The position numbers and the translations under genes were made by a program. The notes beneath the pieces were generated by a model, which saw only the letters and a list, made by a program, of their open reading frames with translations, was not told the DNA's origin and made no database searches. 64,000 nucleotides of DNA from Promethearchaeota archaeon (lineage in GTDB: Archaea; Asgardarchaeota; Lokiarchaeia; Sigyniarchaeales; SOKP01): assembly GCA_030603385.1 (NCBI GenBank), contig JAUVXW010000011.1, forward strand, positions 29,564 to 93,563, written 5' to 3'. Below, one piece after another: positions 12,001-34,535 of this stretch. Numbering within the stretch: position 1 is the first letter of the stretch; each line of letters starts with the position of its first letter.

Positions 12001-15000
12001 CTGCCTTAGATAAAAAGCTCTCATCGTTATCACCTTCTATTGTGAAGATAGCTTTTATCTCAAAATCTCCGGTTTCGGTTTCATTAAAGTAATTCTCGAA
12101 CATAAGGAAATTTCTATCTACAATATAAGAAAATGTATTCGTGCCCGTATAATCATCATAGCACACAAAGCTACTCTCATCCCATCTATTTTCTCTATAA
12201 TTATAAAGATAAATTTTTAATAACGAGGAGCTCTTAGTCTCGTCACTAAACACTAGCCTTCCAGAATTGAGGTCGATATTTTCAAATTGAAATCCAGGTA
12301 TTTCGGAATATTGAATAATTAGTTCCATAAATTTAGTAATGTTCTTGACATAATCATATTGAAACGTTAAAGTTACAGGACTTAACGATGATATCATACC
12401 CTCATGCCATTCGAACGCATAATATATAATATTTGCAATAAGATATCCATTATAGCCTTTATATGGACCAATTAGCGTTATTACTTTCTGATCCTGATCA
12501 AAAGAATAATCAATGTGTTCTCGCAAGATTTCAGCTCCCGCATAAAGGCTATAAATCTCAAAATTATACTTGTATTCTAAATCACTTGACTCAAATATGT
12601 AGCTTGTTATATCTACTTGAGTTAAAATGATACCATTCTGGGCAATTGTGAAATAAGGGCCTTCAATCGATTCTTCATTATAAAGATATACAGAATCTTG
12701 GGATTCCATTTCAATATTCGCATATAGAAGTTCATGAGCGAACATCCCTTTGAAGAGATTACCGTCTACCGAACACTCGCTAATCATAACTTCTAGTGTG
12801 ATATATAAATCGGAAGAAGCATCTCGAGTGAATGTTTCTGCTAAAACTGCTTCTCCACCCTCTACATAATCAATCTCATCAAAGCTAAGTTCAAGTTCAT
12901 AATAATGAAATCCTAAGTAATTTGTATCTAATACTTTTTCTAACGTTCCAATAGAACTTAGTTCATTCCTACCCATATCTAATTCATATAAGCTTACTTT
13001 GAGAACATAATCCCCGCATAATACTTGAGATAATTCGGAGTGTATGACGTCTTTAAAACCTGTATTAAATTCTAAATGAAGTGTACCACCAACAAAATCA
13101 GAAGGGTTGGGTAATATATTATTTCTAAGTAAAGTCTCGTCCTTTAAAGAAAATCTATATAAGCTAGTATCATCAACTTTTCCAAAATGTATTGTGCCTT
13201 TCACTATTGAATCTAGGTGAGTGGCATTTGTGAAATCTACAAACATACCATAGTCATTAGAACCAATAGTATACCATACGTTTACATCCGGATGAATATA
13301 GGTCCCATAATGAGTATTATTTACCCATAAATCACTTACAAAGAAAGGTTTGGTGTAGTTAATGTCTCCTGAAACGAAACTTCCTGGTAAATACCAGTAT
13401 CCATCACTTGAATTATAGGTCAGTATTAATTGTGGTATATATTCAATCGAAACATTTGTAAATTGATACTTCATAGGAGAATTAAACGCAAGTTCATTGT
13501 CTTGAGTTGTCCAATAATAATAGATTGGATATTCATATACTACAGAATCTTCAGAAAGAATCCCTTTTACTGCCAAAATCTCTCCTAAGTTATCTATCAA
13601 GCTTAGATTGGCTCTAAAATTTTCATCAAGCTCAAGATTTGCCGTTAAAGAAGCTTCAGGATACATTACTTGCCGACTTTCTCCGATAAATACACAATCG
13701 ATAACGTCAACAGTCTGAGAGATTTCAATGGGTATCTCGGGGTTCATTCTTTCATATACGAAATTATTAGAGTCAGGATCAATTGAGATGTTGCTTGGAA
13801 TAATATAAGATAGGAAGGCTAATTTCATTACTCCGTCTTTAATAGTGTTGTTGTTAAGATTATTGATCGTGAATGGATTTTTCACATTAATATCGTTATC
13901 ATTTAGAATTGGAATGATATTATTCGAAACTCTAAAATCTTGTAAATAATCAATAAAGTTATCTGAAAAAGTTACGGGATCCCACACAGCACGGTTATAA
14001 TCTTGGCTTTCTATCCGTATCATGCCTTTAAAATCTTCCCAATATCCTGAAGTGTAGTTATAATACAATAGCCGAGATCGAAGACTCCATGTTGAATCAG
14101 AAGCTCTGTTATCTAAATCAATATCAAGTTCTAAGGCAAGCTCTAAAATTCCTCTCTCATACATAGCAAGATCGATCTGTCCGAAATCCAATTGTATGGG
14201 AGTTAGAAGAGGTATCTGTATATCGTCTGAGGCACTGTGGCGGAACCTGCTTGTAGAATATTCTGTATAATTACCTAAAATAGCGGGAACATATTTAGTC
14301 TCATTGTTCCCTTCAATATTATTATTTTCTAATGGCTTATTGGTATCTGGGTACACCTTAAAGTCAAGCTCAAGATCCGAAAGCTCAAGATCTGCCCAAA
14401 TTATATCATTTTCACGACCAAAAATTGGAGTCTGGATGGAATTTTTAAGTGTAAAATGAATACTATTTTTACCAAAATACGGATCATCATACAGTCCTGA
14501 ATCAATTGGAGCTGGATTTTGCTGCTTATGAGACAATGATGAAGTTACATTTATGATTTTATCGTTTTTTAATGTGATATTTACTGGTTGATTTAACCAT
14601 TCTAAGTACAGATAATCTATTAATAATCTTCTGTCATAGGCTTCACCATCCAATCCTTGTGCATCAGCAACGACTAAAGCCATGAGTGAATCAATATTTG
14701 CGAAGAAACCACTAAATCCATTACTATCATCGTAGCTAAAAGTATGCTCTATATTATCGTTAACATAGAAGTAAGAAGTATAATAACCCCCCGTATATTC
14801 ACTCCCGTCCCATGTATCAGTCCATCCATCGAAGTTGACAATAAAATCATTTTGACCGTTCAAAAGACTGTCAAAATTGAAACCTACTTTTGCATTGTTT
14901 GGATCGTTTTGATAACCTTTCTCATCGACGTAAAGATAATCCAAGGTAACTTGTAATGAAGGATTCCCAAGATTATAACACCATACTTGAGTTACAATTT

Positions 15001-18000
15001 TAAGATCAATCTTATATATATAAGTCGGGGGCATACCTGGGCCAACATAGAGATAATATGCTTGATCTAGATCTAATGTTAATTCAGTTAATTCTTCATA
15101 GGGGATTTCTGCTATTTCCTCATAAACCCCCGAAGACCATCTTTTTGCGTAAATTTTACAGAATGTATTCTGCCAGACAAGGTAGCTGGTTCCCCTATCG
15201 GGTCTAAAACCCCAGTGAATTTTAGCTTCAACATCCACATCTGCAGGATAATAAGGAAGGGGATAATTGGCTAAAGCAAAATGGTAATAATCAGAATATC
15301 TAACCCAGTCTTCATTGGTGTATACCACTTCGGCCCAATACACTCTTTCTTTACCATCATCTTCTCTGGTACTCCATCCAGCCTCATCTTGAGGACCGCT
15401 AGTATAAGGTGGGTTGTTAACTTCCGCTTCAACAGTATAAGAACTTGATTGATATGATCTTTGGGCCCAAGCAACCTTAAAATCACATGTGACCGAGTCG
15501 TTATCTCGAATATCTGGATTTAAGTCTCCTAAAGTTTTCACGGCATCTCCATAGAAATCAGTGACATAAGAATCAGATAAACCGGTAGCAGAATCTAAGA
15601 TAAACCCCGTTTCGTCGTATATATAAGATTCTAAATTATCATAAGAACCCACAGCAAATGTAGGGAGGAGTTCATACTCAAAAATATTTTCATGCTCCAT
15701 CTCATCGTGAAAACTATAAATAATATCAACGTCTGCAGAAATTTGAGCAAATGTGTTTTCGGCATTTAAAAGTCTATCGTCCGCATCAAGTTCTAGCACG
15801 TCAGCATGACCATCAACGGCTTTATAACTTGCAATTAATGATTTATATTTAGCAAAATCTTGCTCATTTCGAATTTGTGTGTAATATTGAGATTCGATAG
15901 ATTTTACAATAATTCCCTTATCTGTATCGCCGTAATGTGACTCAATTTTTAATTTTGGCGCCGTGAACTCACTATCAGCTATATTTAGTAAGTCGGTAAA
16001 ATCATTATACGTATTATTATAGAAGTATCCGTGCCACTTCTGTTCATTAGGATTATAATAAAATGATATAACATTATCACCAAAATCGAGCAAGTCGTCG
16101 TAAATAGTTATATTAATGTTATCATTTACAAAAACAGAAACATAATCTGTCTCATTTTGACCAGTTCCTACTGGTTCAAAAACAAATGATGCTCGATACA
16201 AGTCATGTTCGACGCTCCAAGGTTTATAAGTAAAAATATTTAGACTGTCAATATGAACGACAAATTCCGAACTTGCAATTAAACCAATCTTAAAGGAAAT
16301 TGTATAAAAATCACCATCGTCAAATTTGTAGAACTGGTCTTCAAGGATCGAAAATGAAAATGTGTCCACATTCCTTAGAATATAATCAATATCTTCATAA
16401 AGACTACTATTGAGATTTCTAACTTTAAAGGTGGCACCTTCTAAAGAGGCAGAAGTGGCGAAACCTTTCAAGTTTATTCCCATCTTGTTCATATCTACAG
16501 TCTCAGACTTTGGTACACTAAATTCAAATTCAACAAATACTTCCTGTATTGTGGATTTTAGATTAGATGATATATTGTAATATTGACCATCTTCAAAATG
16601 AGCGAACCAAGAGGATGTTAAGGGAGTACCCGTCTCGATATAGGGCTTGTAGGATTCTTCTACATAATCATAAGGAGATAACTGAGTATCAATTATATTT
16701 GCTCCTTCAAGAACCGAAATCGAACTAACTGAGAGGTAATTTGTGTCATCTAGCGTCCCAGAGAACATTAACTGGTCAAACTGAATAGTCTCACTGGTCT
16801 CAAGTATTATAAATTGAGAACTAAAATCGTTATTTCCTTGAGGTACGATTGTAAATATTTGGACAACTTCTCCATCACAATATAATGTAAAGTTTATTTC
16901 ATTGGAAGTCTTTGGCTTAAATTCAATTACTATTTGATCATTAGGAGTAACGGAAATATTTTTTGAGTACACTTGGCTTTTGAGGCTTAGACTTTCTGAT
17001 TCATCAGATTGCATATAAAGTAGACCTGGTTCTTGGTGTCTTTTTGCCAACTGGTATTTTACTTTCGGATTCCAGTAATCAACTCCATAATGCAAGGTTT
17101 CGGTATCTATTTTGAAATAGGATTTAGTAGATTTTACAGCCCCTAAATCTAATGTAAATGTTTGACCATAAGCAGGTGAAAAGGAAAGTAAAGCATGTGT
17201 ATAAGGTCTATGTTCCCAAGTAATCGTATCTGCATTAAATCCTTCGACAGAATATAGAAGAAGACTGGTCCCACCGTCCGTGATAGTTGCTTCAAGCTCC
17301 CAAATATCGTTGCTACCCAGTGCAAGATATTCAATTAAGTCGGGCGTTATGATAAATGCCTCAATTTCTTCGATCACGTCGTATGAGGTTAACCAATCAA
17401 CATCTATTTGATGGATAAAAATTGAGCTTGACATAACCCAAATATAATCGAGATTCGGATCATTATTTTCAACACGAGTCCAACCACTTAGAGAAATTTG
17501 GACCCCATCGGTTGATGCTATCAAATGTACTGGAGAATCTGTATCTCCAAGATAGATTTGTATTTGCGTTAAAAAGCTTGAAGTTATGTCATAATATAAA
17601 TCAAATGTTTTGGTAATAACCAGATTACTATATCTAGTCTTAGTTCTTTGATTAAAAATAGGAAAATATTCTGAAGTGATGCCCATGCTATTACTATCAT
17701 CTTCATGGGTATCGTATATATCGGTACCTGCTACAAGGCTACCTTCTACTATTGATGCAGTATTACTCTGGTGATCGCCAACATAAGTATGCCTATAAGT
17801 GGAAAGATTATCAATATTATAATTTGTTGTAGGGTGTAAGGAACGTGCGATAGCCGCGTCTATTATATCCTTTTCAAAAATAATTGTGTCTTGACTAGTC
17901 CCAAATAAGTCCCAAGTTGATGTGCGAAAATTATCTCGAAATTTCTCAGTCCTTTCAGGTTCCTTAAGGTTAAACCCGCTATATCCGTAAAGTTCTATAC

Positions 18001-21000
18001 CATTTGACGTAAAATCTATATCATCGCTTACATGGTGAGTACCTATAGCGTTTGACTCAAATTCATCATAATTCAGATAATTGGTATCTGTAAGCGTATA
18101 TGTCTTAAAATCCCCAACACATAAATATGCATTGTCTACTTGCCCAGATTCGCGATTAGTGATCAAATGGATCTTAAATTCGTGCAAATCGTTTATAAAA
18201 TTTCCATAAAATTCACTATTGGCATCGAACGAGAATCCGTTTTGATAGGCAGGGAAGTCATTATATTCTTTAGTATAAGGTGTAGCAGGATCTATGATGA
18301 TATTTCCTAACTGGAATTTATTTGTATTATAATCAGTATCATAAAATAACACCTTGTAATCCTCATCAGTAATTAACTCTGATTGATCAAGGAATAATGT
18401 GTTTATCTGCTTGCTTGTATCATCGTTGTTCAAAAAGCTGCCACCAGCAAGAACAGAATCGTCAAAAACAATATTACCGCTATCGTCCATAGTGCTTGGG
18501 AAACATTTTCCATATCCAATAGTATTTATATCATTTAAACTCGTAGTACCCCACTTCGGCCTGAACATATCGTCATCAGTATAAGCACTTGTAGGATGCC
18601 CACCCCAAAAATCTAAGTCTAAACCATCTGTATAATAATAATCATTTCCGTCTAAAGGTGCAACAGGAAGAGATTCCCATCTATTATACTCGAAGTTCCA
18701 TAACTGCAATGACAATGGATATTCTTGAGTAAAGGAAAGGGAGTAAATTGAAGCATCAAAAGAGACTTGGATTTCTTCCAAACTCTCCTTGCTAATTACA
18801 GGTAACTTGTAGGTAAATTCGAATCCGAAAATACCATTCTCATCCTTTTCCGTAGTCATGTACTGACTCCAATTTGAAAAAACAGATTTCATTTCTGCAA
18901 GTGAGGCTCCTTGAACTGCCGGATTGTTTGAAGAAACCCTTTCTAGCTTAAAGTAAAATACGTCAGCACTGAAGCCAGTAAATTGGTCTCCGAAATCAAA
19001 AGTTATATAGTTTACATCGGTAATTAATTCCCGATCAAAATCAATTTCAGTGTCATAATAAAGCCTTTGTCCATTTATCTTCAATTCGCAGGGTTTATAA
19101 GAGGAGGTAGCATGGAAGCTAAAATAAAAATCATCTCCGTCATATGGAATGTCCATTTCAAAAAAACCAAAATAGGTATATCCATATCCTGTCCAATCGG
19201 TTGATAGCCTTATATAATTTGAATCGTCTGTGTGGGTATTCAGAAAATTACCATCATCCCACCCAGAATCTTGGTCTGGATAATCAATGTCTGTCAAATA
19301 TTCAGCACTGAGGGATGATGGAAGAGTTCCAGAATCGTAGATAAGAGCTACTTGAGAATTATCAGGCTCGATATTGACTAGACTATTCTCTACTAAAATC
19401 CTTTGTTCACCGTCAAAATTATATAACCCTGAACTTGTCTCATCATGTATTTCAGAATAATACATCTGAGAGAAGTTAAAGTTTTCTGAAATATATGGAT
19501 TGCTGATCCACGCACCATCAATATAATTACCTTCAAAACTTCCATCAAACATGGTCTCTCCGAGATAATCATCTTTTGCATTAAGGTTTTGAGCTAACAT
19601 TCCAGAATCATAACTATCACCATAATATATTAGAGAGTTCTCTAATTCTGGCATCATATATTCAGAACTCCACTCAGAATTAACTTCTGGATAAATAGCA
19701 GTAGACCCTAATCCAGATATAACAGGTGTGTATTGATAAGTTAAGCTATTAGGGAGCCAATTCCAGTTTGCTATAGGACTTTCATATGAAGTTGCGGGAT
19801 TTAGCCAAAGTAACGGTAAAGAAATATCTGAATAAAACAGTCCCGAAGCGGATATAGTTTGAGTATCTGATGTACCGTTCTGATTTTTAAACGAAGGATC
19901 AATACTAGTCTTTTCTCCTCCAACGAACGATTCGAATGAGTAGGCTACTTTTGCAAACGCTAAGTTGGACCATATAGAATTTAAATCAAGACGTATTTCC
20001 GTACGGGAGACACGATACTTATCTATATCCAAATCATACCAATTATTGTCCCCATTAAGCTTATAAGTAATCTTATTGACCATATATATTGGTGTCTTTT
20101 TAGGTGTTATTACGGGGTAATAAATAGGTAATAAATCTTGTTTTCCGAGTACTTCAGAAACAAAGCATACAGGACTTACAATAGAGGTAGTGTCCTCCAA
20201 ATAGGTTATTGTCGTCTGGAATACTCCTGTCTCAGAAGCAATAAGTAATTTTCTTAAATTATTATCAGCAATAGCAAACAAATCTATTATTTTAAATTTA
20301 ATGTCGTCAAACCCGGTTATTTCAAAATCAGTCCATTCTTCTGTCCCTGATTTTCTTCTCAAAGCAATAACAGCATCCATCTTTCCAATGGCAAGCCGTT
20401 CAATGCCAAGAATAATAGAATCCACACCGTTAATCTCATCATACTCTATTACTAAAATCTTACCTAGAACTGAATCTTCTATCACGTTTTTTATTTCTAA
20501 ATTAAAATCATATTCAAATAATTGTGAGTAGTATGAACCTTCGATTAATCCACCGACCAGTATTGCTTTTCTATCTGTTGCTGAGAAGTAATTTACGAAC
20601 TCTACAGATGTTGGAATGAAATTAAGGGGGGCATGGCAATCAACTAAATATGTAAGGTCGTAATCGGTATCAAAGTAATACTTCCATAGCGAGAACGCTT
20701 CTGAAGAGTCTTGCTGGACTGTAAGCATTACGGAATTTGTTGTACTACCATCATATTCTACATCAAATGTAATATAATTATATCCTGAAAGTTGGGTAAC
20801 GTTTTCTTTTATAACCCAATCTAGATTATCATTAAGATAGATTACATCAATTTGAGAAGAAGATATTCTTATTATCTCATATATACTGTCTTTATTTATA
20901 TCCCATAGTTTGAATACTTGATCTTGGATAGACGCGATAGTGCCCTCATCACTGAGTGAAGAATCGAGTGTCCATCCTGTCTGATCGTCAAATTTATATA

Positions 21001-24000
21001 TGGATATATCTAAGTCAGAACTTGCCTCAGAAATGATGATGGGCTGCCATTCATTACTGTTTCCAAACAACCCCCATGAACCCCATAAGTCAGCGTTATC
21101 TAACGGAGCGGCTTGCAGCGGTAAATATTCATACGAAAAGTTATACATGGAAGCCATAAATGAAGCATCTTCGTTTATATCCCAAGTTATTGAATAACTT
21201 CCATTTGTAAGGATGGTTGCAGGATCGGTTTGCATCTTTACCCATTCTTTTTCTATCGGGTTATAATATTGGGCGATTACATCCCATAAGTTTGTGGTAC
21301 CAAAGTAATTTTCGATATACCCTTCAATTTCATTTTCATTGGAAAATAAGGAAGAATTATATTCAAAAATATTGCCAAACACTAAATCAGAAATTAATTT
21401 AATTTGAGTATAGTCATAGGTTTTTATCGGTGAATATCCGAATTCGTAATTGTTTTCTCCAATAGAATATTGTTCATCCCAAGAATAACTAATTGCGTCA
21501 ACAAAAGCATTTCCACCAGCTATACCACCAGGATCATATAACCAAGAAGATATATCTGATTGTATTTCCCAAAAATTATAAGGACCATATTTTGACCCAT
21601 TTATATATAGAAAATATGTATCTGCTGCAAGACCTTCATATTCCCCAGTTCCGCATTCGAAATCAATTCTAATATGATACCAAATGTCTGCCGCATAGGT
21701 TCGAGTATTATGATGAGTTGTAGAATAATAAGCAGTTATATATCCTGTATCATGGAAATAGATCATAGGACCAACTGTTGCACCTGCTAACATAAATCTA
21801 TGACGTTCATCAGTTTCACCACATTTTACATAAAACTCAACAGTCCCACTTCCTATAGCATCAAAATAATTTCTACCTTGATTCCACGCACCATCATCTT
21901 CATATAAATGAAGTATTTTACTATGTATAGTATCTCCAGATTCTATCTCGCAAGTATATAGAGTAGTAGCATCTATAAAATCTATATCTATACCAGAATT
22001 CCCAACATCCTCATTCCCAAAACTATAGGTTCCGCAATAAGATCCGTTAAAATCTAAATAATTTCCAGATTTATCAAACACCAGACATTTCAAGAAGTAA
22101 TTCTCTGGAGGAAGCTTATCAATCGATTTTAAGTAGTCACCGTCCCAATAGTAATTCCATATATCATCTTCTCCTGAGAAATAGGCTCTTCCAACAAAAT
22201 CCCAATTTACCTCATCTGAAGAGCCATACACCAATATCCGATGTGCATCAGAGTCGCCATTTATATCAGGTAAAATAGAAGATGTATCTATATGAATGGT
22301 GCTATCCTCATAATTATCAGAACCGAAAATAATAATTCCCGATCCTGTTGAATTTGTACCCAATACCCAATTGAACAGACTATAATCATCATTTTTTAAA
22401 ATGACATTATCATAATATCCCTCATATTTATGGGAAACTAATACATTACCCATGCCATCTTCAATTTCCAACCAAAATAAAAAATTATCCCCTTCAGAAA
22501 GGGATAGATAATCCGAAATGTTAAAACAGGATCTCCCAGAAGATAATAACTCCCATTTTTTTGCATTATTACTGAATTGTAACACAATTTCATCATCTAC
22601 TAACTCATAGAACTGAGCATAAATATGTCTTGTTGAAGCAGGAGAAAGAGCATACCGATATTGAGGATCGATGTATAATAGTAAAGATGTGCCATCAAGC
22701 AAAATGGTAAATTTATCTATGGTATAGTCTCCAATTTTAATACTTTGAATGCTTTTGATGTATTGGGTACTACTAAAATAATCACCATACCCATCAATTT
22801 CATAGATAAATTGTTCATAGTTAAGCGATCCAATAATGCTAATATTATACCATGCTAAGGGATTTGTATAATAGAATGTGATATTTTTAATACCTAATTG
22901 ATCTGCGATAGTTTGATCTATTTGACTCCAATCAAAACCATCATAAACTGTGTCAAATGCAGAAATAGTGAGATTTTTATTATCATTAAAATATATAGTG
23001 TCGACGACTGTGGAATTGTATATATTCTCATTATCGACATAGATATGCTCCTCTATTAACTCTACAACTGGGCATGAATTGTCAATATAAATATTTTCAA
23101 GGATATAAATATTAAAGTTGCCGGCAGCATCTGTAGCAATTAAAGTAATATTGTAATAACCGTTTTGCAACCAATTTGTATCAATTAAGATCTGCCATTG
23201 ATCTTCTCCAATTTCAATTATTGTCAATTCAAAATCAGGAGCGATAGTACCAGATGAAAGATGCAAACATTCAATAGAGATACTATATTCTGAACTTTCT
23301 GTTAAAGTTGCATTTATTTCGAACAAATTGTTTCCATAAGCATAATTCACTTGTACATTATTGAAAATTGGTGCCGATTTATCAATAATTATCGCAAATG
23401 GATATTCTGAAATATATCCTAATGTATCATTGCAAATTAATTTAATATTTTTTAAACCTTCTGATAGTGAAGCGTCGTTAAAATAGAAAGTATAGATATT
23501 GTCAATAGTATTCCAATAACCAGAAATAGTGGTGTCAAAATAATAAGTAGAAACATCAGAAAAATCTGATATATAAAAAGAAATTGCTCCAGACTCGGGA
23601 TTAATGGTGGTATTTGTATCAAATTGCCTATAGATTTGTGGTCCATGATAATCTATTGTTATAGGTTGCGAAATCGCATAAGTAGAAACTACTCCTGATA
23701 TATCAAAAAATTCTCCTACAAAAGTATAATTATCTTGGGGTAAGACTGTGAAGTTATAGCTTCCTTTGAATTGATTGGAATAGTGGGATGCATTTGAAAC
23801 TCCAAAATCTATAGAAATAGGATTTGTATAATCATACAGACCGTCTAAATCATGTTGCGTTATTAGAGTTATGAAAATTTCTTCATTTTGAGCATCTTTG
23901 AAATAAGAAAATTCATATGAAGAAGTATTTAACTTAACAGCTTCTATTGAACATATCTCATCTCCTTCAAGTAATTCTGGTAAATCCACAGCAAATCTAT

Positions 24001-27000
24001 TATCAGAAATCACAATTTCAGGGCTATGAGTATAATACACTGTAATCTTAAGATGATCAATACGAGCATCTGTAGCAGAAGACCCGGTATAATTTATGTA
24101 TATATCAATACCAAAATCAGCACTATTGATCTCGGTGGGAGTCCATGAAGCGCCCCACAAATAGGTTGAATTGCCATAAATGTTATAAATATCATTATCT
24201 ATAGTGTCCCATGGTGTGGAATTTGCCATATCAACGCCAACTTGACCACTTATTTTTCTAAGAAAGATCTCCCCATCTGTAATTGCAGAGCCAACAGTAG
24301 CCATTCGATCCATTTCAACTTTAATACCATTAATTGTGGCTCCTATCGGAATATTAAACCCAAAGTTTGCTAATCGTAGCCAATCTGAGCTACTTTCTGT
24401 TAAAGTGCTAAATGAAACATAGGTGTAGTCGCCATCTTGGGTTACTAATTTGCCCAGATCGTTCCAAGGTTCTTGGTCTTGGGGTGATTGAGTATAATAG
24501 ACTTTAATTTGCACATGATCAATACGCGCATCAGTATTAACAGATCCATTATATTCCACGTATAAATCAATACCAAAATCATTACTGTTGATTTCAGTAG
24601 CGGCCCAAGAGGTACCCCACAAATCGGTGGGACTTCCATATACGTCGTAAACATCGTTATCTACGATATCCCAAGACGTTAAGGTATCTGCGTAATTATC
24701 TCCCACTTGACCTGTAGTATTTCTTAAGTATAATTCCATATCATGAATTGAATCGCTTACGGTGGATCTTCGATCGAAAAGTACTTCTATACCAGTGATG
24801 GTCACTCCGCTGGTAGGGAGGGTGAATCCAAAATTTGTTAATCGTAACCAATCTGATGTAGTTTCTGTTGATGTGGTAAATGAAACATAAGTATCATCAT
24901 TGTTTTGAGATGTTGCTTTGGTAGTATCTACCCATTCTTCGCCTGAAGCATCAGGTAAGGTATAATGTATTTTAATCCGTACTAGGTCTATGTAGGCAGT
25001 ATTCGTAGTTCCTACATTTTCGACTGCGATATCAATCCCAAAATTAACATTATTTATATCAGAAACTGACCAGACACCATTCCATAGATCGGTTGAGCCG
25101 CCATAAATATCGTAGCCATCAATATCTGTTATATTCCACCAAGTACTTGTGGCTTTATCTTCTCCGTTTTGACCGGTTGAATTCCGTAAGAAAATAGAAA
25201 AATCCCTAATGGAGCTTCCTGGTGAATCTTGCTTTCTATCCATTCCCACTTCGATGCCATCAATTGTGGCTCCTACGGGAATTGCAAAATTAAAGTCTGA
25301 TAATCGTAACCAGTCCGTTTCCGTACTACTGCTTCCACCATTATCTGGTGCGATTGCGATTTGAAAATAAGCAGCACCATCTGAGACACTACAACTAACT
25401 GTAGCATCTCCAGAAGTCCCTTGAGAAGCTAAATCTTTACTGCCAAAGCAACCACTCACATCAGAATTTCCAGAAGTGTCAGTTTGATAGTCATCAACCT
25501 CAGTGAATCCAGTTCCTGAGACTTCGAATGGATACCCATCACCTCCGTCAAAACTTAACCCATAAAGCACTAAACAATTGTCTACGGTTGTAGTTACGGC
25601 TGGAATAACGTGACTATTTGAACTTGACGAAGATTGTGTAAAGCTTTTAATATTGATTGGGGTTGTATCATCAGCTCCCATAATCCTAAGGTAATATCCC
25701 ATCCACTCATCTAATCCTGCAGAAGTTACAGTCTCAGTTGGATTTTCATTCCCATCAGCAATTCGCCAGAAAACAGCAATGTGGGCATCACTGACTCCAT
25801 CACCTGAAGTACCAACGAAGTTCCAGTTCGCTTTGTTATCTGAAAAAGCAATTGATGATGTATCATCGTTCATGACAATAAGCACCAATAAATCACCTAC
25901 TTCAACTCCAGAAGGTTTACTTAATATTAGGTTTGTTGAAGGCATTGAGTCACCCTGTTCCGTCCATGATTCTATAATTGGAACACTTTCCTCACTAATT
26001 ATTATATTAGCTGAAGCATAACTATCATTTTGAGCCAATGTATTACCTAGATTTGCCCAATCTATGCTGTTACTTCTGTCTACACTAGAGGCTGTAAACG
26101 GAGACAACCAGTTAGTAGTATAGCTACCTCCACCACCCAGATTTATATTTATATTCGATGTTATTGTTGGCGATTGTGCCTCAGAATCGTCCCCACCTCC
26201 TGCGATTCTGTCCGTATTTGTTGTAGTGGATGGTGATCCTATATCAGAATCGTTTTGTTCATCGGTATAATTTAGACTTGCAAAATAATCATAATCTACT
26301 TGTAATTCAATTATCTTAACTAAATCACCATGAGAGTTAAAGATTTTTAGTACAGGAGGTAAGTTGTTTACAATATAAGGTATTCTGTGAGAATTATTAT
26401 ATGCATTGGGATTATCAACAAAGCTCATTAAGATATTATTGATCTCGCTTGAAATGTTTATAAACAAGTTGGAGATCTCAACTATATCATCAAACGTCGC
26501 AGTTGTAACTATGATTATTATTTCTTTCGACGTAATAAACATAGCATCTTGATATAGCCTAATATCTATAGGAATAAGTGTAAAATCAGATCCCTCAATA
26601 TCATAAAAAGTCGAATTTAGCTTTATACCGTTGTCTTCAAAATAAATATGATTTTGTTCAGAAACAATACTGGTAAGTGAAAAGCTTTCATAGCTGGTTA
26701 AGACAACTATTTTTGTAATATCATTATCAACAGGAAAAACTTTCAGATCTATATTAATCATACCATCTTGATCAAGCCCATATAAGACACTATTATCAAG
26801 CCCCTCTATCCTAAACTGCTCATGATTATTAAGATCTTTTACAATCCAATAACTTGAATCAGAAAGGATTTTTTCGTTATCTAGAACATCGTATCCGATA
26901 AACCTTAGAGTCATATTATCATCTCTTAGGTTAAAAATATTGAACGAAATGTCTGCTAGAGAATTTTCATCACTATAAAATGTCCCATAAGAAACCCAAT

Positions 27001-30000
27001 CTGAGGTCGTTGGAGTCTCATATTTATATTCTATGTCTACTTTATAGAAGTCGGTGTCTGTAGAGTTAATTGCCATTGTTACTATATTATCCTGAACATT
27101 ATCATAAGTCTTTCCTAACACCAATGTATAAGGATCTCCCGAAAACAAGGTCATTTGAGGGGGGTTAATATCTAAAATAGTGTGATTCAGGGTATAATTA
27201 TAAAGGCAAGAAGAGAATCCATAGCTAAGATTTGCTTCGATTATGAAATTAATATCATAATTATTTGGATTTAATCCCTTCGAATTTACCCAATCTGATA
27301 AGGAATCTAGATAAATAAGCCAGTGATCAGAAGTGAGATCATCATAATTTACTCTTGCTAGAAAATCAATATCATTAGAATAATTAATATAGACATCTAA
27401 TGAACTTAGATGATCTTCAAAATCTATATTTACACCAATTTGAGAATTATGATTAATCCTCCCTTCATTATCCACATAGGTGAAATTTATAAGTTCATCA
27501 AAATGGTCGATTTTAAAATAAGTGCTATATGAATCATATACATAATTATTAATATCATCTATAGCTTTTACTACAAAATACCATGACTCGTTATCAGGAA
27601 TATTCCAGCTCGTGTTAATATAAGAATATAAACCATCATCAGGACTAAATGAAGCATCAAATGAGGCAAGCAAAATCCACGCTTCAGGAGTAGGATTCTG
27701 TAAGTCTGGTTCCGTTCCAGCTAAGAAAAATTCCAATAGCTCGATAGGTTTTCCAGTGCTGTTACATTCAAAATTTAACCATCCGTCAATCGTCTGTCCT
27801 GAGACTGTTATAGGTAGCCAACCACCTTGTCCGTCTTCTTGTGAAACTACAACATCGATTGCAAGATATGGTCCACCGCTATGACTTTCGATTTCAGCAT
27901 CTGAGATAGAGCTGTTAAATACTGAAATGTCATCAAGGCGACCTGTGAAACATGAATATGTAGAAATTTCAGCACCGATAATAAGGGCTCCTCCCCCTTT
28001 AAGCGTGCCGCCACTACTCCACGGTTCTGCGGTCGCTCCTATTGCTTCTCTACACCAAGTATCACCAATAAGAACATCTACATCATTTCCACTGTTATTA
28101 TATCTAACAGCTATAAAAGTCCATGTATTTAGGGCAATTGCTCCAGGAAACCCATATTCTGCTGTAGCATTCACAGTATCGGCTATAATATGGACTTGTA
28201 AAAAACCAGTCTCATTAACTCCTAATTCTATTACTCCCGATTTTGAAAAGAAGCAATTTCTAATACCGTTTACACTTTGATTTGAAGCAAATGCAGTTGG
28301 ATATACCCAAGCCGTAATTACAAATTCGGTATCAGAAACACCAAGGGTACTGTCTAATATATCACCGAAATCTACATAATCGAAATTTTCATAGGACATG
28401 CCTCCCTCTTCGGGGGGTTCCGATTCAAAGGCTATCTTCATACCATCCAAATTCGCTTTGGAAAGGTCCAAGCCTGACCACGTAAATGTATGCCATGCTG
28501 GGGTACTGCTCATATCCAGTTGTCTTGCTCCTAACCATGATCCACAATACACATTCACCGTTGAGTCTATATCAATTTCTTTCCCATACACCTTTATTTG
28601 TATTTCAGTAACTGAACCGCTTGAAATATCGAATGTATTCATAAAGAATTCATCCGTAATATTGTTTGATGCGATGCTAGAAGTATAAATATAGTCGTTC
28701 GTATCCAGAGTCGTCTCGTTTATAAGATCAGCATGGTCTCCTGTATGTGAACTCTCCCATTCTGTGGTAACATCGCCGTCTGGATGGGAAATACCACTAT
28801 CTTGCGTTGGTGTACTTTCGGTATAGTACACTTTAATTTGAAGGTGATCGATACGAGCACTGGTATCAGATGCTCCAAAATATTTTACCGAAATATCAAT
28901 CCCGAAATCATTACTATTAATATCCGTGACTTCCCATGTATCCCCCCAAAGGTAGGTTGAATTACCATAACTATCATACGAATCATCATCAATATCATCC
29001 CAATTACTACTAGTATCTGCTTCATTATTCCCTACTGGACCGCTTGATTTTCTTAAGTAGATTGCATCATCTTTAATTGTGGTCTGATTGGCTCGTCTGT
29101 CGATTTGAACCTCAATACCGTCAATACTAGCCCCTGTAGGTATGCTAAAACCGAAGTTATTTAACTGTAACCAATCGGATGTATCCTCGGTTGAGGTAGT
29201 AAATGAAATATAAGTATCATCATCATCTTGGAAGGCTGCCTTACTAGTATCTTGCCACTCTTCTCCAGAAGTTCCACCACCGGCACTATTAATAGCAACT
29301 TGATAACCAGCCATACCATCCCCAACTTGGGCAGTCACAATTGCTGTTCCAGAACTGCCGGTAGATGTCATATTCTTATATCCAAAACTAGCAGAGACAT
29401 CAGAATTTCCAGAAGTGTCAGTTTGATAGTCATCAACCTCAGTGAATCCAGTTCCTGAGACTTCGAATGGATAACCATCACCACCATCAAAAGCGTTAGC
29501 ATATATAATTAAACAATTATCCTCATTAGTCGTTACACCAGATATTGAGAGTGGAGAACTTGAGCTTATAGAATCACTACTAACATCTTCAATAACATCA
29601 GATGTATTTACGCCACTTATCCGTAAATACCACATACCCCATTCGTCCGAAGACTGAGCTGTCACCGATTCATATGAATCCTCCGTGCCATTAGCTACAC
29701 GATAATACATGCCTATATGAGAATCTGAAATCCCATTTCCTACTTCTGTCACTAAAGTCCAACCAACCTTATTATCAATAAATTGTTGCGTAGTAGATAT
29801 GTCATCATTAAAAGGAATCAGAACAAGTAAATCCCCGGATTGAACACCTGGAGGCTTATCACATGTCAGAATCGAACTGGCGCTTGTTGAGCCATCTACT
29901 AGCATTGATTCTATAACCGGAACACTGCCACCGCCACTTCTCTCAACATTTGAAGTGGTTTGAGGAGACTTTATTGAGTTAGTCTCAAGATAATACTCAT

Positions 30001-33000
30001 AAGAGACATTCGCATAAGCATTATAAATTGTCGTACCAATAGTTTCGCCTGAGCCACCCGTTACCTGCCCATCACCATCAAAATAAAGCCCGTAGTCTCT
30101 TTTACCGATATCCCAAGATGTACCTCCTTGTATAAGCCCTTGATAATTGTGAATGAGGTCGTAGGTGGACGTCCCAAAATTCTCGTCAAATTCTGCCATA
30201 AAATCTAAAGAACTAGAAGGCTCGGATTCAGAATAGCTCGCCTTTAGTAAGTCATAGAGATCATAGGGCCAATCAGGATAACCATCTCTATTCTCATCAA
30301 TAAAGAAACGGCGCCCAAATATATCAGATTCAAGGCCAGCGTATTCCTCATGCGAGAGGGATTTATAGAATTCATCGCCTTCATGTTCAATTTTTACCAA
30401 TAAATTCTGCTCTATTGAACCATAAACTGTGTGGTTGAGGTAAAACTTACCATCTTTATCGGTATTTAAATTCGTAATTTTAGTATACCGATCATTGTCT
30501 TCAATGAAAAGTTCGAGATTATCTAATTGAACAGGCTTATGGAGAGAATTCACAATCTGCCCATCGTACACTATGTTCCAGCAGAGTTTTCCATCTATTT
30601 CATATTCAAACGTGTATACGGCACCATAGTTGAATCCATCTTCTAATGGTTCCGAAAATCGCTCATTTGAAAGGACTTCTAATGCATCTTTTTCGATTAC
30701 TATTTCATATGTTTTGGGTAAAGCAGATCGAAATCCAAACCCGGTTAATTCGCCATAATAGACTTCAACTTTATATGTTCCTGGTGCCAAATGTAATGTA
30801 TTAAGTGGGACGTGAGTCATCATTATATAGTCTTTTCGTGGACCGTTTACATAATCGGAAGATAACTCATAATATTTTTTTAAACGATATCCTTCTATTG
30901 ATGGTACATCTTGAGGGATAAATCGCACTCGTACATGCGAAGCTGCACCAATAGACGGTGATATTTTACATTTTATTACAATTTCATCATTAATAGACAG
31001 CTTATCAAGATCTTCGAGAAAAGAGGAATATTCCAAAGTTGTGAAGTCTATCGATGAAGGGTGAAGTCTTTGTTCTGGTGAGACTCTCGCAAACTCGAGG
31101 TCTGGAGAATTAATAGATGAAATGGAATTTACTGCAAAAATTAAAGGAAAAACGGTAAGGAATACCACTACTAATAATGCAGAACGAGCAATTTTATCGT
31201 TATATGTAAATAGTGTTTTCCTTGATTGGCTTCTTCTTTGTTTTTCTTTTTGTTGAGATCGTAAATAACGTCTAATAAAAGCTGTGCTTTTGAAAGTAAA
31301 AAGAAAAATTGCGGCAAATATACATCCATAACATATCAGTTGGAACTGTGGTGCTAAGACAAACACTCCAACAAATGCAATTGAGATGAGAAATAAGAGC
31401 GTCCATAATACAATAAACTTATTTTTATGATAAGCTCTTGCCCCTTTATATCGTATGTCATGTGCAAATTTTCTAATTGACGCATTTTTAACACTCTCTA
31501 ATAGATGTGATTGTGTTTTTTTAGGAATGATTTCAGGGGATTTTCTACTCAAGAAATAGCATATACAAATATTGATGATTGGAAGTAGCTGAGCATATTC
31601 TATCATCCCATTAGTGAAAAGTAGATAACCTATCCATGGTAAGGGGAGAAAACTTAATGGTAAAAATAATACCTGCCGTCGTCCTAGTAGCCTCCACCCA
31701 TTAAAGAATATGTAGGAGAAAAAGGAAAGTCCAACTTGTATAAGGAAAAACAGAAATTTTATGTCTTGCGGGAAGAATATCGTAGAAGATGGTGTGAAAT
31801 ATAATAAAGTAAATAAAAACAGTCCAAAAATCGATAAAAAGATTCCAGCATATTTTACCTTATTTTGAGAAATTGTTGTTTTAATTTGATGAAGACGATC
31901 TTTTAATGTGGAGTGTGTTAGCTTTTTGGCTTTAGATTTAGTCTCTTCGCTTTTAGCTGCTTTATAGCGCCCTAATTTTTTCGTTAAAATTCCAAAAATC
32001 GATAGAGTGATCCCTAGGTTTATTACTTTTTTTTGAGAAAGCTTTGCTTTAATTTGATGAAGATGGTCTTTTAAAGAAGACTTTTCCAAATTTTTGGTCT
32101 TAGATTTAGTCGTTATTTTTTTAGCGGTTTTATAGCGTTCTAATCTCTGCATTAAGATTGATTCTACAGTTCTCCTATGACGGGCTAAAGTGAGAACGTG
32201 TGAACCGTGCTTTACTTTTAATGGAGTTAATTCATTATAAAGATCCTCTCTTAGTTTATTTCGTACTCTTGGATTTTCGTTTTTGCCTTCTCCTTTAAAA
32301 AACACTTTTAATTTCTCTTTTTGTTCCTGTAAGAAGTTGTATTCCCCTTCTGACAATGTTTCTTCAAGGTTTTTGCTATATTCTATTTGAGTGAGTGTTT
32401 TATATTTCTTCTCGATCTTTTTAAAAATAGCTCTAAATTTCTTGATGACTTCATTGGAGTATCCTTCATTTTTTAATATTGAACTATATCCATTTTCATT
32501 TCTCATAAAATGGAATACGTCATTTAGGATCTCTTTTTCAAATTCGATCTCTTCTATAATCCTTAAGAGATCACTAGTAAAAGAATCAGAATACCCGTGT
32601 TTTTCTAATAAAGATATATTCTCGGATTTATTTTTTAAGAATTTAGTAATATTAATTGAGTCTGTGAAGTTTAGTAGATCTCTCGCCTTAGCGTAAAGAG
32701 CTTTTTGGGATTCTGGAAGTATGTATTCCTTCCCTTCTACAATGATAACTCCAGAGAAGATTTTCTCTAGCCGTTCTCTCCAGAAGTTTTCAATAGCTGT
32801 TGAAAATTCCCTATAGGATATTGTGTGAAAATTTAGAAATTTCTTACTATATTTCTTTCCATATAATTCTAGAGTTTTAAGATATTTATTACTATATCCT
32901 AATTTCTTAAAGAGATGTCTATATCCTTTCCTCACATGGGCAAACTCAACTACATCTACATCGTTCTTATAATCTAATAAGATAACTTTAAGGCCTAGAT

Positions 33001-34273: not shown

Positions 34274-34535
34274 TATTTTCACCTTTCATTTCTAATCTGA
34301 TGAGCTGATTAATTTTTTTAATATAAATTGAAATCCTTTCAGGATGATACTTAATTTGATTAAAGTATCTTTTTAGCTGATTTTTGGCTATTTTGCGCAG
34401 GTTAGGTTTAATAGACCTGATAATTAATTGGAAAAATTCTTTATCAGAAATGTTATCTAATTCTAAACCAAGATCTTTCCTTGCAAAACTCTTTGTAGGA
34501 AACTCAATATGTGGTCGAATACCGGCAATTGCCAT
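34266..34535 (-). CDS. Small basic hypothetical protein, probably translationally coupled to the giant gene
   Basis: ORF track 34266-34583. The likely start is ATG 34535 after GTGA. Its TAG stop overlaps the giant ATG by 8 nt. Confidence 0.75.
   Translation of the reverse strand: MAIAGIRPHIEFPTKSFARKDLGLELDNISDKEFFQLIIRSIKPNLRKIAKNQLKRYFNQIKYHPERISIYIKKINQLIRLEMKGENNE

What the first reader, a model, noticed from the sequence alone, without database searches (positions are those of the whole stretch)
24035..26255. Russian-doll domain architecture: A inside A inside A, with B innermost
Three short N-terminal segments are stacked with Gly linkers: DSDIGSPSTTTNTDRI-AGGG, DSEAQSPTITSNININL-GGGG, TTNWLSPFTASSVDRS. 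Three domain bodies follow, each beginning W.(D/N)....Q..D.Y. Only the last segment is contiguous with its body, so the order reads like matched brackets N3[N2[N1-body1]body2]body3, and body 1 itself carries the ~210-aa domain B. The chain would go out and return, making a stalk or side branch tipped by B. This is growth by recursive insertion rather than tandem duplication. I know of no description of this, but novelty is unverified.
Basis: partly seen in the sequence, partly recalled or inferred. Interest (0 to 1): 0.9.

Follow-up and report, generated by a model that had tools for sequence, protein, structure and literature searches.

The report
Self-nested lectin-fold domains, Asgard surface protein
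A 750-residue stretch of a giant Asgard-archaeal surface protein is most likely three copies of one sugar-binding-type beta-sandwich domain nested like Russian dolls, with a fourth, phage-tail-like domain in the centre; this way of building a protein is rare but already known.

Summary
The novelty claim is not.

The stretch (window 24008-26251, minus strand) lies in an open frame of at least 11,427 aa (14,833 aa in the genome) in an Asgard archaeon.

- **Canonical domain A.** Free-standing homologues have three parts: a short first element b0 (W-x-S/T-P-x5-I/V-D-R), then b1 (W-x-N-P-x-N...D..YA), then a core of about 125 aa.
- **This protein.** Bodies 2 and 3 have b1 and the core but no b0. 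Exactly three b0 stubs are stacked upstream on Gly linkers. Body 1 carries the 219-aa domain B in its b1/core loop.
- **Relatives.** Those with 3, 2 or 1 bodies have 3, 2 or 1 stubs.
- **Structure.** An AlphaFold2 model built with an alignment (mean pLDDT 89.8) gives ordered stubs (pLDDT 74-82). All 45 single-domain PDB matches (CBM32, CBM4, MAM type; Z 7.9-9.7) run stub 2 to body 2, stub 3 to body 3 or stub 1 to body 1, and never crossed.

The layout is therefore A3[A2[A1[B]]].

Recursive same-family insertion is already described for the Si3 region of cyanobacterial RNA polymerase, and nested adhesin domains for RrgA. This scan has also noted similar nests on other DNA. I rate it a new member of a known kind, built from two unnamed families.

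The parts
26204..26251 (-). Stub 3 (b0 of domain A3), residues 2678-2693, DSDIGSPSTTTNTDRI; followed by linker AGGGD
   Evidence: Sequence. Model residues 44-59 form two strands, pLDDT about 74-76. 17 single-domain PDB alignments run from model 41-48 to 782-787.
26138..26188 (-). Stub 2 (b0 of domain A2), residues 2699-2715, DSEAQSPTITSNININL; followed by linker GGGGSY
   Evidence: Sequence. Model residues 65-81 form two strands, pLDDT 74-82; the GGGG linker at 81-84 is below 50. 25 single-domain PDB alignments run from model 62-68 to 625-633.
26072..26119 (-). Stub 1 (b0 of domain A1), residues 2722-2737, TTNWLSPFTASSVDRS; contiguous with body 1
   Evidence: Same motif and the same 17-residue W-to-W spacing as the N-termini of canonical A domains in P0040, P0095 and P0098. 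3 PDB alignments run from model 83-90 to 473-475.
25985..26065 (-). b1 element of A1, residues 2740-2766 (IDWANLGNTLAQNDSYASANIIISEES)
   Evidence: Aligns with the start of bodies 2 and 3. Profile match over positions 1-67 of the profile.
25328..25984 (-). Domain B, residues 2767-2985 (219 aa), inserted in the b1/core loop of A1; innermost level of the nest
   Evidence: Many proteins of about 220-260 aa match it from their residue 2 onward. Second copy at residues 1455-1672, E 2.6e-64. pLDDT 92-98. Resembles uncharacterised tailed-phage proteins, TM 0.65-0.79 by the target. No Pfam family.
24935..25327 (-). Core of A1, residues 2986-3116 (STETDWLRLSDFNFAIP ... IKIHYT)
   Evidence: Profile match E 2.5e-69. 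Alignment with A2 and A3.
24470..24934 (-). Body of A2 (b1 + core, no b0 of its own), residues 3117-3271
   Evidence: Profile match E 4e-84. Only 26 aa lie between the A1 and A2 cores, against about 36-50 in canonical arrays, where that linker also holds a b0.
24008..24469 (-). Body of A3 (b1 + core, no b0 of its own), residues 3272-3425; outermost host, through which the chain enters and leaves the module
   Evidence: Profile match E 3.4e-86. 30-aa gap to the A2 core. Clusters with the third cores of P0003 and P0004 (99/90).
28808..29977 (-). Related one-level module upstream in the same protein, residues 1436-1825: one stub (IKSPQTTSNVERS), GGGS, domain B, GGGTSGEE, then a body with b1 and core
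   Evidence: One stub for one body. Here B sits in the b0/b1 loop, the loop that holds A1 and A2 in the main module.
2..34282 (-). The giant ORF that holds the module (at least 11,427 aa in the window; the open frame is 14,833 aa in the genome)
   Evidence: Other recognisable parts: Big_3_3, Laminin_G_3, DUF2341.

Best explanation
The region encodes a four-level nested module, A3[A2[A1[B]]], in the outer part of a giant surface protein of an Asgard archaeon.

Domain A is an unnamed jelly-roll beta-sandwich of the carbohydrate-binding-module type. It has three parts: a short first hairpin b0 (S-P-x5-I/V-D/N-R), a b1 element (W-x-D/N...Q..D.Y) and a core of about 125 aa. A1 sits in the b0/b1 loop of A2, and A2 with its load sits in the b0/b1 loop of A3. 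In the linear sequence the three b0 hairpins therefore pile up first, joined by Gly linkers, and the three bodies follow in reverse order of nesting. A1 in turn holds domain B, a beta-sandwich common in tailed-phage proteins, in its b1/core loop.

The chain enters and leaves the module through A3 only. A2, A1 and B then form a side branch off the main axis with B at the tip.

Shown here: the sequence layout, the homology, and the stub-to-body count rule. Predicted: the pairing of each stub with its body. Inferred: the module is a display arm for a binding head, whose inner domains are spared from force along the main chain, and it arose by repeated insertion or by paired duplication of a stub and a body.
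For: - **Repeats and insert.** There are three homologous bodies, and B interrupts body 1.
- **The stub belongs to the domain.** Canonical contiguous A domains carry b0 directly before b1. Examples are the N-termini of P0040 and P0098, and P0095. All 27 inter-core linkers of canonical arrays align as b0-b1. Linkers between cores are 26 and 30 aa here, against about 36-50 in canonical arrays.
- **Count rule.**
  - This module: 3 stubs, 3 bodies. The upstream module: 1 and 1.
  - P0002: 3 and 3. P0003: 3 and 3.
  - P0006: 3 stubs, 3 bodies, the last cut by the end of the fragment.
  - P0007 (Hodarchaeales MAG): 2 and 2. P0143: 1 and 1.
  - P0152: upstream module 1 and 1; downstream 3 stubs, then the fragment breaks off.
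  - Sources.
- **Stubs are conserved by position.** P, N and R of stub 3, and SP and L-G of stub 2, are invariant in four orthologues.
- **Model.** AlphaFold2 with a 122-row alignment gives mean pLDDT 89.8. The stubs form strands at pLDDT 74-82, and only the Gly linker and the ends fall below 50.
- **Structural alignment against 48,161 PDB chains.** Of the 50 best rows, 45 are single-domain matches with 118-150 residues aligned at rmsd 2.9-4.0. 25 span model 62-68..625-633, 17 span 41-48..782-787 and 3 span 83-90..473-475. None is crossed and none starts at a body.
- **Age.** In a tree of cores, A2 and A3 each group with the same-position cores of P0003, P0004 and P0006 (100/96 and 99/90). The three-level layout is therefore older than these orthologues.
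Against: - The pairing rests on one predicted model. I had no coordinates, contact map or predicted aligned error, only first and last aligned residues.
- pTM is 0.49, so the mutual arrangement of the domains is uncertain.
- The alignment has only 3-5 rows over the stubs and 7-8 over the A1 core, so the stub placement owes little to co-variation.
- VIA Z scores of 8-10 are in the range the tool calls common for beta-sandwiches. They support a fold class, not homology.
- The count rule rests on about eight modules, mostly close relatives, and was read by eye. Short profiles for b0 and b1 were too weak to count objectively.
- No function was tested.
Confidence: 0.8

Rival explanations
1. This is a plain tandem array. 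The three bodies fold on their own, and the three short segments are a flexible Ser/Thr/Gly-rich linker, perhaps glycosylated, left over from degenerate repeats.
For: The segments are short, rich in S, T, N and G, and separated by Gly runs. The single-sequence model showed nothing ordered there, but it was uninformative everywhere.
Against: - The same motif is a fixed N-terminal part of canonical A domains.
- Bodies 2 and 3 lack exactly that part.
- Stub number follows body number in relatives.
- The stubs are conserved by position and ordered in the alignment-based model.
- They co-align with their bodies onto single-domain PDB structures.
Confidence: 0.08
2. The stubs do complete the bodies, but not in the nested order. 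Either the pairing is crossed (stub 2 with A3, stub 3 with A2), or the stubs are donated to bodies of another molecule, linking giant proteins as donor-strand exchange links pilus subunits.
For: Stubs 2 and 3 are alike and sit on flexible Gly linkers. Nothing I could inspect excludes exchange between chains. pTM is only 0.49.
Against: All 42 single-domain rows that involve stub 2 or stub 3 pair them in the nested order within one chain. The linkers are short: 5-6 residues between stubs, and no spacer between the end of A1 and the b1 of A2. That fits guest termini meeting at the host loop. Each stub keeps features of its own position across orthologues.
Confidence: 0.07
3. The apparent nesting is a modelling artefact. 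AlphaFold2 tucks any spare strand onto an open sheet edge, and the bodies may use some other way to cap that edge.
For: The alignment is shallow over the stubs. Only the best of five models was kept and it could not be inspected.
Against: The sequence-only evidence stands without the model: a canonical b0 in homologues, its absence from bodies 2 and 3, and matching counts.
Confidence: 0.05

Closest known systems
Si3 insertion of cyanobacterial (type 3) RNA polymerase beta-prime: recursively inserted HABAS / sandwich-barrel hybrid motif domains (PMC11515920; six-level nest in Prochlorococcus RpoC2, PMC13114784)
   Same: Copies of one small beta-rich domain family are inserted into other copies of the same family, several levels deep. 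N-terminal pieces therefore come first in the sequence and C-terminal pieces come last.
   Different: The fold differs (HABAS/SBHM there, a CBM-type jelly-roll here). So does the setting: a cytoplasmic enzyme's trigger loop there, a giant archaeal surface protein here. In this protein the piece left on the N-side is only a hairpin of about 16 residues, and the innermost guest belongs to an unrelated family (B). Si3 has solved structures; this module has only a model.
RrgA, tip adhesin of the Streptococcus pneumoniae pilus: D3 inserted into D2, and D2/D3 inserted into D1 (PMC5333627)
   Same: It is a surface adhesin in which a binding head is carried at the end of nested host domains built from N- and C-terminal pieces.
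   Different: RrgA has two levels, no recursion of one family, and isopeptide-stabilised Ig-like hosts. No relation in sequence was seen here.
Carbohydrate-binding-module type jelly-rolls (CBM32 7d2a, CBM4 4bj0 and 1gui, MAM domains 2c9a and 8yt7, gingipain K1 adhesin 4itc)
   Same: Each A domain, with its stub, superposes on these single domains at Z 8-9.7, rmsd 3.0-3.8, over 120-140 residues.
   Different: There is no sequence match to Pfam or to PDB chains, and sequence identity in the structural alignments is 4-14%. Sugar or calcium sites were not examined. The tool warns that Z values in this range are common.
General nested domain insertion, A1-B1-C-B2-A2 (survey of 48,551 insertion events, PMC13114784)
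   Same: The architecture is the same kind: the host is interrupted in a loop, and the guest can itself be a host.
   Different: That survey found insertions usually smaller than their hosts and mostly one level deep. Here the hosts (about 165 aa) are far smaller than their loads (about 440-600 aa), and there are three nested insertions (four domains).

Membership tests
Recursive (nested) domain insertion, homotypic, as in Si3 of RNA polymerase beta-prime | The host domain's sequence is interrupted, with parts of one fold on both sides of the guest | tested here: met
   By homology: canonical A is b0-b1-core, and here b0 of A2 and A3 lies 400-580 residues upstream of b1-core. By model: single-domain PDB chains align from stub to body. 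This is a prediction, not a solved structure.
Recursive (nested) domain insertion, homotypic, as in Si3 of RNA polymerase beta-prime | A guest is itself a host (two or more levels) | tested here: met
   B lies in A1. A1 lies in A2, and A2 in A3. That gives four domains and three insertions.
Recursive (nested) domain insertion, homotypic, as in Si3 of RNA polymerase beta-prime | Host and guest belong to the same family | tested here: met
   A1, A2 and A3 match one profile at E 2.5e-69 to 3.4e-86.
Recursive (nested) domain insertion, homotypic, as in Si3 of RNA polymerase beta-prime | Nesting seen in an experimental structure | not testable with these tools
   No solved relative by sequence. Only an AlphaFold2 model exists.
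Carbohydrate-binding modules / galactose-binding-like jelly-rolls (CBM32, CBM4, MAM) | Jelly-roll beta-sandwich fold over the whole domain | tested here: met
   Z 7.9-9.7, rmsd 2.9-4.0, 118-150 residues aligned to chains of 124-200 residues. Foldseek finds reelin repeats, Cry protoxin domains, CBM22 and neuropilin.
Carbohydrate-binding modules / galactose-binding-like jelly-rolls (CBM32, CBM4, MAM) | Sequence membership in a curated family (for example Pfam F5_F8_type_C or CBM_4_9) | tested here: not met
   No Pfam family reaches its cut-off for the 1000-aa stretch or for free-standing homologues. No PDB chain matches by sequence.
Carbohydrate-binding modules / galactose-binding-like jelly-rolls (CBM32, CBM4, MAM) | Ligand-binding or calcium-binding residues in place | not tested
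   No coordinates or residue-level alignments were available.
Ordinary tandem-repeat array of complete domains | Each repeat unit is contiguous and carries all elements of the domain | tested here: not met
   A2 and A3 lack b0. Their inter-core linkers are 26 and 30 aa, against about 36-50 aa in canonical arrays, where that linker also holds b0.

The most novel reading that the evidence does not exclude
Domain A may be a dedicated self-hosting display scaffold with two reusable insertion loops, b0/b1 and b1/core. On this reading, nesting depth (1 to 3 or more) and the guest at the tip (B, or unrelated domains of about 300-400 aa in P0003, P0006, P0152 and P0143) are swapped and tuned during evolution. 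Stubs and bodies would be gained or lost together. Asgard archaea and other microbes would then build branched, exchangeable binding arms from a single chain, and the inner domains would be shielded from pulling force.
Probability: 0.4. Interest if true: 0.6.

Novelty: new member of a known kind. Interest (0 to 1): 0.5.

Why it matters
- **Annotation.** Three 16-residue 'linker' peptides are really the first strands of domains whose bodies lie up to 580 residues downstream. Domain callers and repeat finders will mis-split such proteins, and both families involved (A, and B with thousands of metagenomic relatives) have no Pfam entry.
- **Protein architecture.** This is a clean natural case of same-family nesting in a fold (CBM-type jelly-roll) and a setting (giant Asgard surface protein) different from the published Si3 case. 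Relatives of depth 1, 2 and 3 could show how such nests grow.
- **Cell biology.** The layout predicts a branched surface arm tipped by a phage-tail-like domain on an Asgard cell, which could be tested as an adhesion or recognition device.

Tried and rejected
- **Single-sequence AlphaFold2** of the 771-aa stretch gave mean pLDDT 32 and told nothing.
- **Complex prediction**, stubs 3+2 (45 aa) against A2-A3 (309 aa), each with an alignment: score 0.28 and 0.23, under the mark of 0.32. Controls were not run. The tool's verdict is 'no answer', so this counts neither for nor against.
- **Pfam, PHROGs and PDB sequence searches** named neither A nor B. The only hits were weak ones to PHROG families of unknown function.
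- **Scan of genome contigs** for relatives found nothing.
- **Two word-based homologue searches** on the stub region returned only P0006 and P0152.
- **Short profiles for b0 and b1**, built from canonical arrays only, were too weak to count stubs objectively. b0 was not detected even in clear cases, so the counts were read by eye and with a pattern written after the fact.
- **MAFFT alignments** that included three-domain canonical arrays, or rows starting with b1, misplaced A rows onto B. Those versions were discarded before folding.
- **Rejected idea:** that the stubs belong to the Ig-like domain upstream. They co-align with the downstream bodies instead.

Full report
**Where it is.** The finding lies in one open reading frame on the minus strand, from window 34282 to beyond base 2. 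It has at least 11,427 codons in the window and 14,833 in the genome's contig. I number residues from the start at 34282.

The genome has 3.9 Mb in 58 contigs. It encodes ribosomal protein S8e and four actin-family genes, the best at 441 bits to Pfam Actin. The closest relatives of this stretch come from Loki's Castle sediment (LCGC14) and from a Hodarchaeales MAG. This is an Asgard archaeon. Elsewhere the protein carries Big_3_3, Laminin_G_3 and DUF2341 domains, so it is a giant surface protein.

**The observation.** Translation shows three short segments:
- 2678-2693, DSDIGSPSTTTNTDRI
- 2699-2715, DSEAQSPTITSNININL
- 2722-2737, TTNWLSPFTASSVDRS

They are joined by AGGGD and GGGGSY. Three homologous bodies follow, each opening with W-x-(D/N)...Q..D.Y. 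Body 1 is cut after 2766 by a 219-aa domain B (2767-2985) and resumes at STETDWLRL. With B removed it aligns end to end with bodies 2 (3117-3271) and 3 (3272-3425). A profile of the three finds them at E 2.5e-69 to 3.4e-86, plus a fourth copy at 1676-1825 that is preceded by a second B at 1455-1672. The description is accurate.

**What the short segments are.** An exhaustive HMMER search with the 771-aa stretch found more than 10,000 representative proteins. Many proteins of about 220-260 aa match B from their residue 2. A occurs in many tandem arrays.

Homologues in which A is contiguous begin, or continue after the previous core, with W-K-S/T-P-x5-(I/V)-D-R-x5-W-x-N-P-x-N...D..YA...SDWLR. 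This is seen at the N-termini of P0040 and P0098, in P0095 and P0097, and in 27 inter-core linkers that align as one block. Stub 1 plus the start of body 1 (W-L-S-P-F-T-A-S-S-V-D-R-S-N-S-I-D-W) has the same motif and the same 17-residue W-to-W spacing.

So a complete A domain is b0 (the stub) + b1 + core. Bodies 2 and 3 have b1 and core only. The linkers between cores are 26 and 30 residues here, against about 36-50 in canonical arrays.

**Counts in relatives.**

| Protein | Stubs | Bodies |
|---|---|---|
| This module | 3 | 3 |
| Upstream module of the same protein | 1 | 1 |
| P0002 | 3 | 3 |
| P0003 | 3 | 3 |
| P0006 | 3 | 3 (last one truncated) |
| P0007 (Hodarchaeales) | 2 | 2 |
| P0143 | 1 | 1 |
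| P0152, upstream module | 1 | 1 |
| P0152, downstream | 3 | fragment breaks off |

In the alignment, the two-stub proteins line up with stubs 2 and 1 and have a gap at stub 3. Each stub keeps features of its own position across orthologues.

These counts were read by eye. Short profiles were too weak to automate them. A pattern written afterwards from the stubs occurs 5 times in the giant protein against 0.46 expected, and four of the five sit just before the four A cores.

**Structure.** A single-sequence model was useless (pLDDT 32). I then built a 122-row alignment and checked row by row that A and B fragments fell on the right parts. Folding residues 2635-3430 with it gave mean pLDDT 89.8 and pTM 0.49.

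Model numbers are giant numbers minus 2634:
- Stub 3 (44-59) forms strands 44-48 and 52-56, at pLDDT about 74-76.
- Stub 2 (65-81) forms strands 65-69 and 73-77, at pLDDT 74-82.
- Stub 1 (88-103) forms strand 96-100.
- Only 1-7, 29-41, the GGGG linker 81-84 and the last residues fall below 50.

I could not obtain coordinates, so I used the structural aligner as a probe. Against 48,161 PDB representatives, the 50 best rows include 45 single-domain matches. These are CBM32, CBM4, CBM61, MAM, the gingipain adhesin domain, Eph ligand-binding domains and similar, at Z 7.9-9.7, rmsd 2.9-4.0, with 118-150 residues aligned.

Their model ranges fall in three classes and no other:
- 62-68 to 625-633 (25 rows)
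- 41-48 to 782-787 (17 rows)
- 83-90 to 473-475 (3 rows)

These are exactly stub 2 to the end of body 2, stub 3 to the end of body 3, and stub 1 to the end of body 1. A rigid alignment of about 130 residues that starts in a stub and ends in a body hundreds of residues later means the stub sits in that body's sandwich. No row is crossed, and none starts at a body.

**Resulting picture.** The layout is A3[A2[A1[B]]]. A1 lies in the b0/b1 loop of A2, and A2 lies in the b0/b1 loop of A3. B lies in the b1/core loop of A1. In the upstream module B lies instead in the b0/b1 loop of its host, so both loops accept guests.

The b1/core loop holds other, unrelated guests in orthologues: about 300 aa in P0003, P0006 and P0152, and about 400 aa in P0143.

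In a tree of cores, A2 and A3 each group with the cores at the same position in P0003, P0004 and P0006 (100/96 and 99/90). All b0-less host bodies form one clade (99/89). The three-level nest is therefore older than these orthologues and has been kept.

**What it probably does (inference).** The chain enters and leaves through A3, so A2, A1 and B stand off the main axis as a branch with B at the tip. A has a lectin/CBM-type fold. B resembles uncharacterised proteins of tailed phages, one of them annotated as a minor tail protein, with TM 0.65-0.79 by the target. A binding or recognition arm is the most likely role. Tension along the giant protein would load only A3. None of this was tested.

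How the nest arose is open. One route is repeated in-frame insertion of a whole unit into a host loop. Another is separate duplication of a stub, which is harmless, and of a body, which is rescued by the spare stub.

**Comparison with what is known.** Nested insertion is common knowledge: it occurs in 20% of multidomain proteins, with depth up to six (PMC13114784). [quoted passage not shown] A nested adhesin is known in RrgA, with D3 in D2 and D2/D3 in D1 (PMC5333627).

Earlier notes of this scan describe similar nests in CPR bacteria, another Asgard archaeon, phages and giant viruses. Two first-reader notes are on what looks like the same domain family in another genome. These are unchecked notes, but they agree with my result.

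What is particular here:
- the fold and the setting;
- the very small N-side piece, which looks like a linker;
- hosts much smaller than their loads;
- two families with no curated name.

**Verdict.** The novelty is that of a new member of a known kind.

Leads that went nowhere:
- The complex prediction gave no answer.
- The genome-contig scan found nothing.
- The two word-based homologue searches added only P0152, the other hit (P0006) being already known.

Noticed in passing
window 28808-29977 (-), residues 1436-1825: A second, one-level module in the same protein reads: stub IKSPQTTSNVERS, GGGS, domain B, GGGTSGEE, then a complete b1+core. Here B sits in the b0/b1 loop, not the b1/core loop. 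It follows ...YFDGDG... and a strand TTIYNAYANVSYEY, so it may itself lie inside a split LamG-like domain, as other first-reader notes say. I did not test that.
   Followed up: partly
P0087:460-951, P0138:570-1081, P0126:570-897, P0045:540-1529: In more distant relatives whole b0+b1 elements (..ND...G..AW.NP.NA...D..A..) are stacked upstream and the cores abut with no linker. By eye the counts are 3 and 3, 3 and 3, and 2 and 2; P0045 is mixed. This suggests A-in-A nesting at the b1/core loop as well. It was read by eye only; the profiles caught only some of the elements.
   Followed up: partly
P0003:400-700, P0006:190-485, P0152:440-600 and 1690-1880, P0143:830-1225: Orthologues carry unrelated guests of about 150-400 aa, not B, in the same b1/core loop of the innermost A domain. 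The tip domain seems exchangeable.
   Followed up: no
window 25409-25553 and 29348-29492: The two B copies share a 145-nt stretch at 84% identity, spaced 3939 bases apart. At protein level the run FDGGDGYPFEVSGTGFTEVDDYQTDTSGNSDVS is identical in both, although the copies are otherwise diverged. This may be intragenic gene conversion.
   Followed up: partly
P0009:1-120, P0010:190-250, P0033:200-270: One subfamily has two alternating kinds of stub (..SPxTTxNIDRG.. and ..WVTTGTGTxxxRS..) before the first body, so simple stub counting is ambiguous there.
   Followed up: no
P0152:1880-2054: This LCGC14 protein ends in an ABC-ATPase-like sequence (PF00005) joined directly to the inserted domain. 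This is probably a chimeric assembly or gene call, not a real fusion.
   Followed up: no
window 33400-34282 (-), residues 1-300: The giant protein starts with a basic stretch and several hydrophobic, membrane-span-like segments rather than an obvious signal peptide.
   Followed up: no
window 46517-49144 (-): An 875-aa ORF carries N6_Mtase, Eco57I and HSDR_N_2 domains, so it is a restriction-modification enzyme gene. Most other ORFs of the window have no Pfam match.
   Followed up: no
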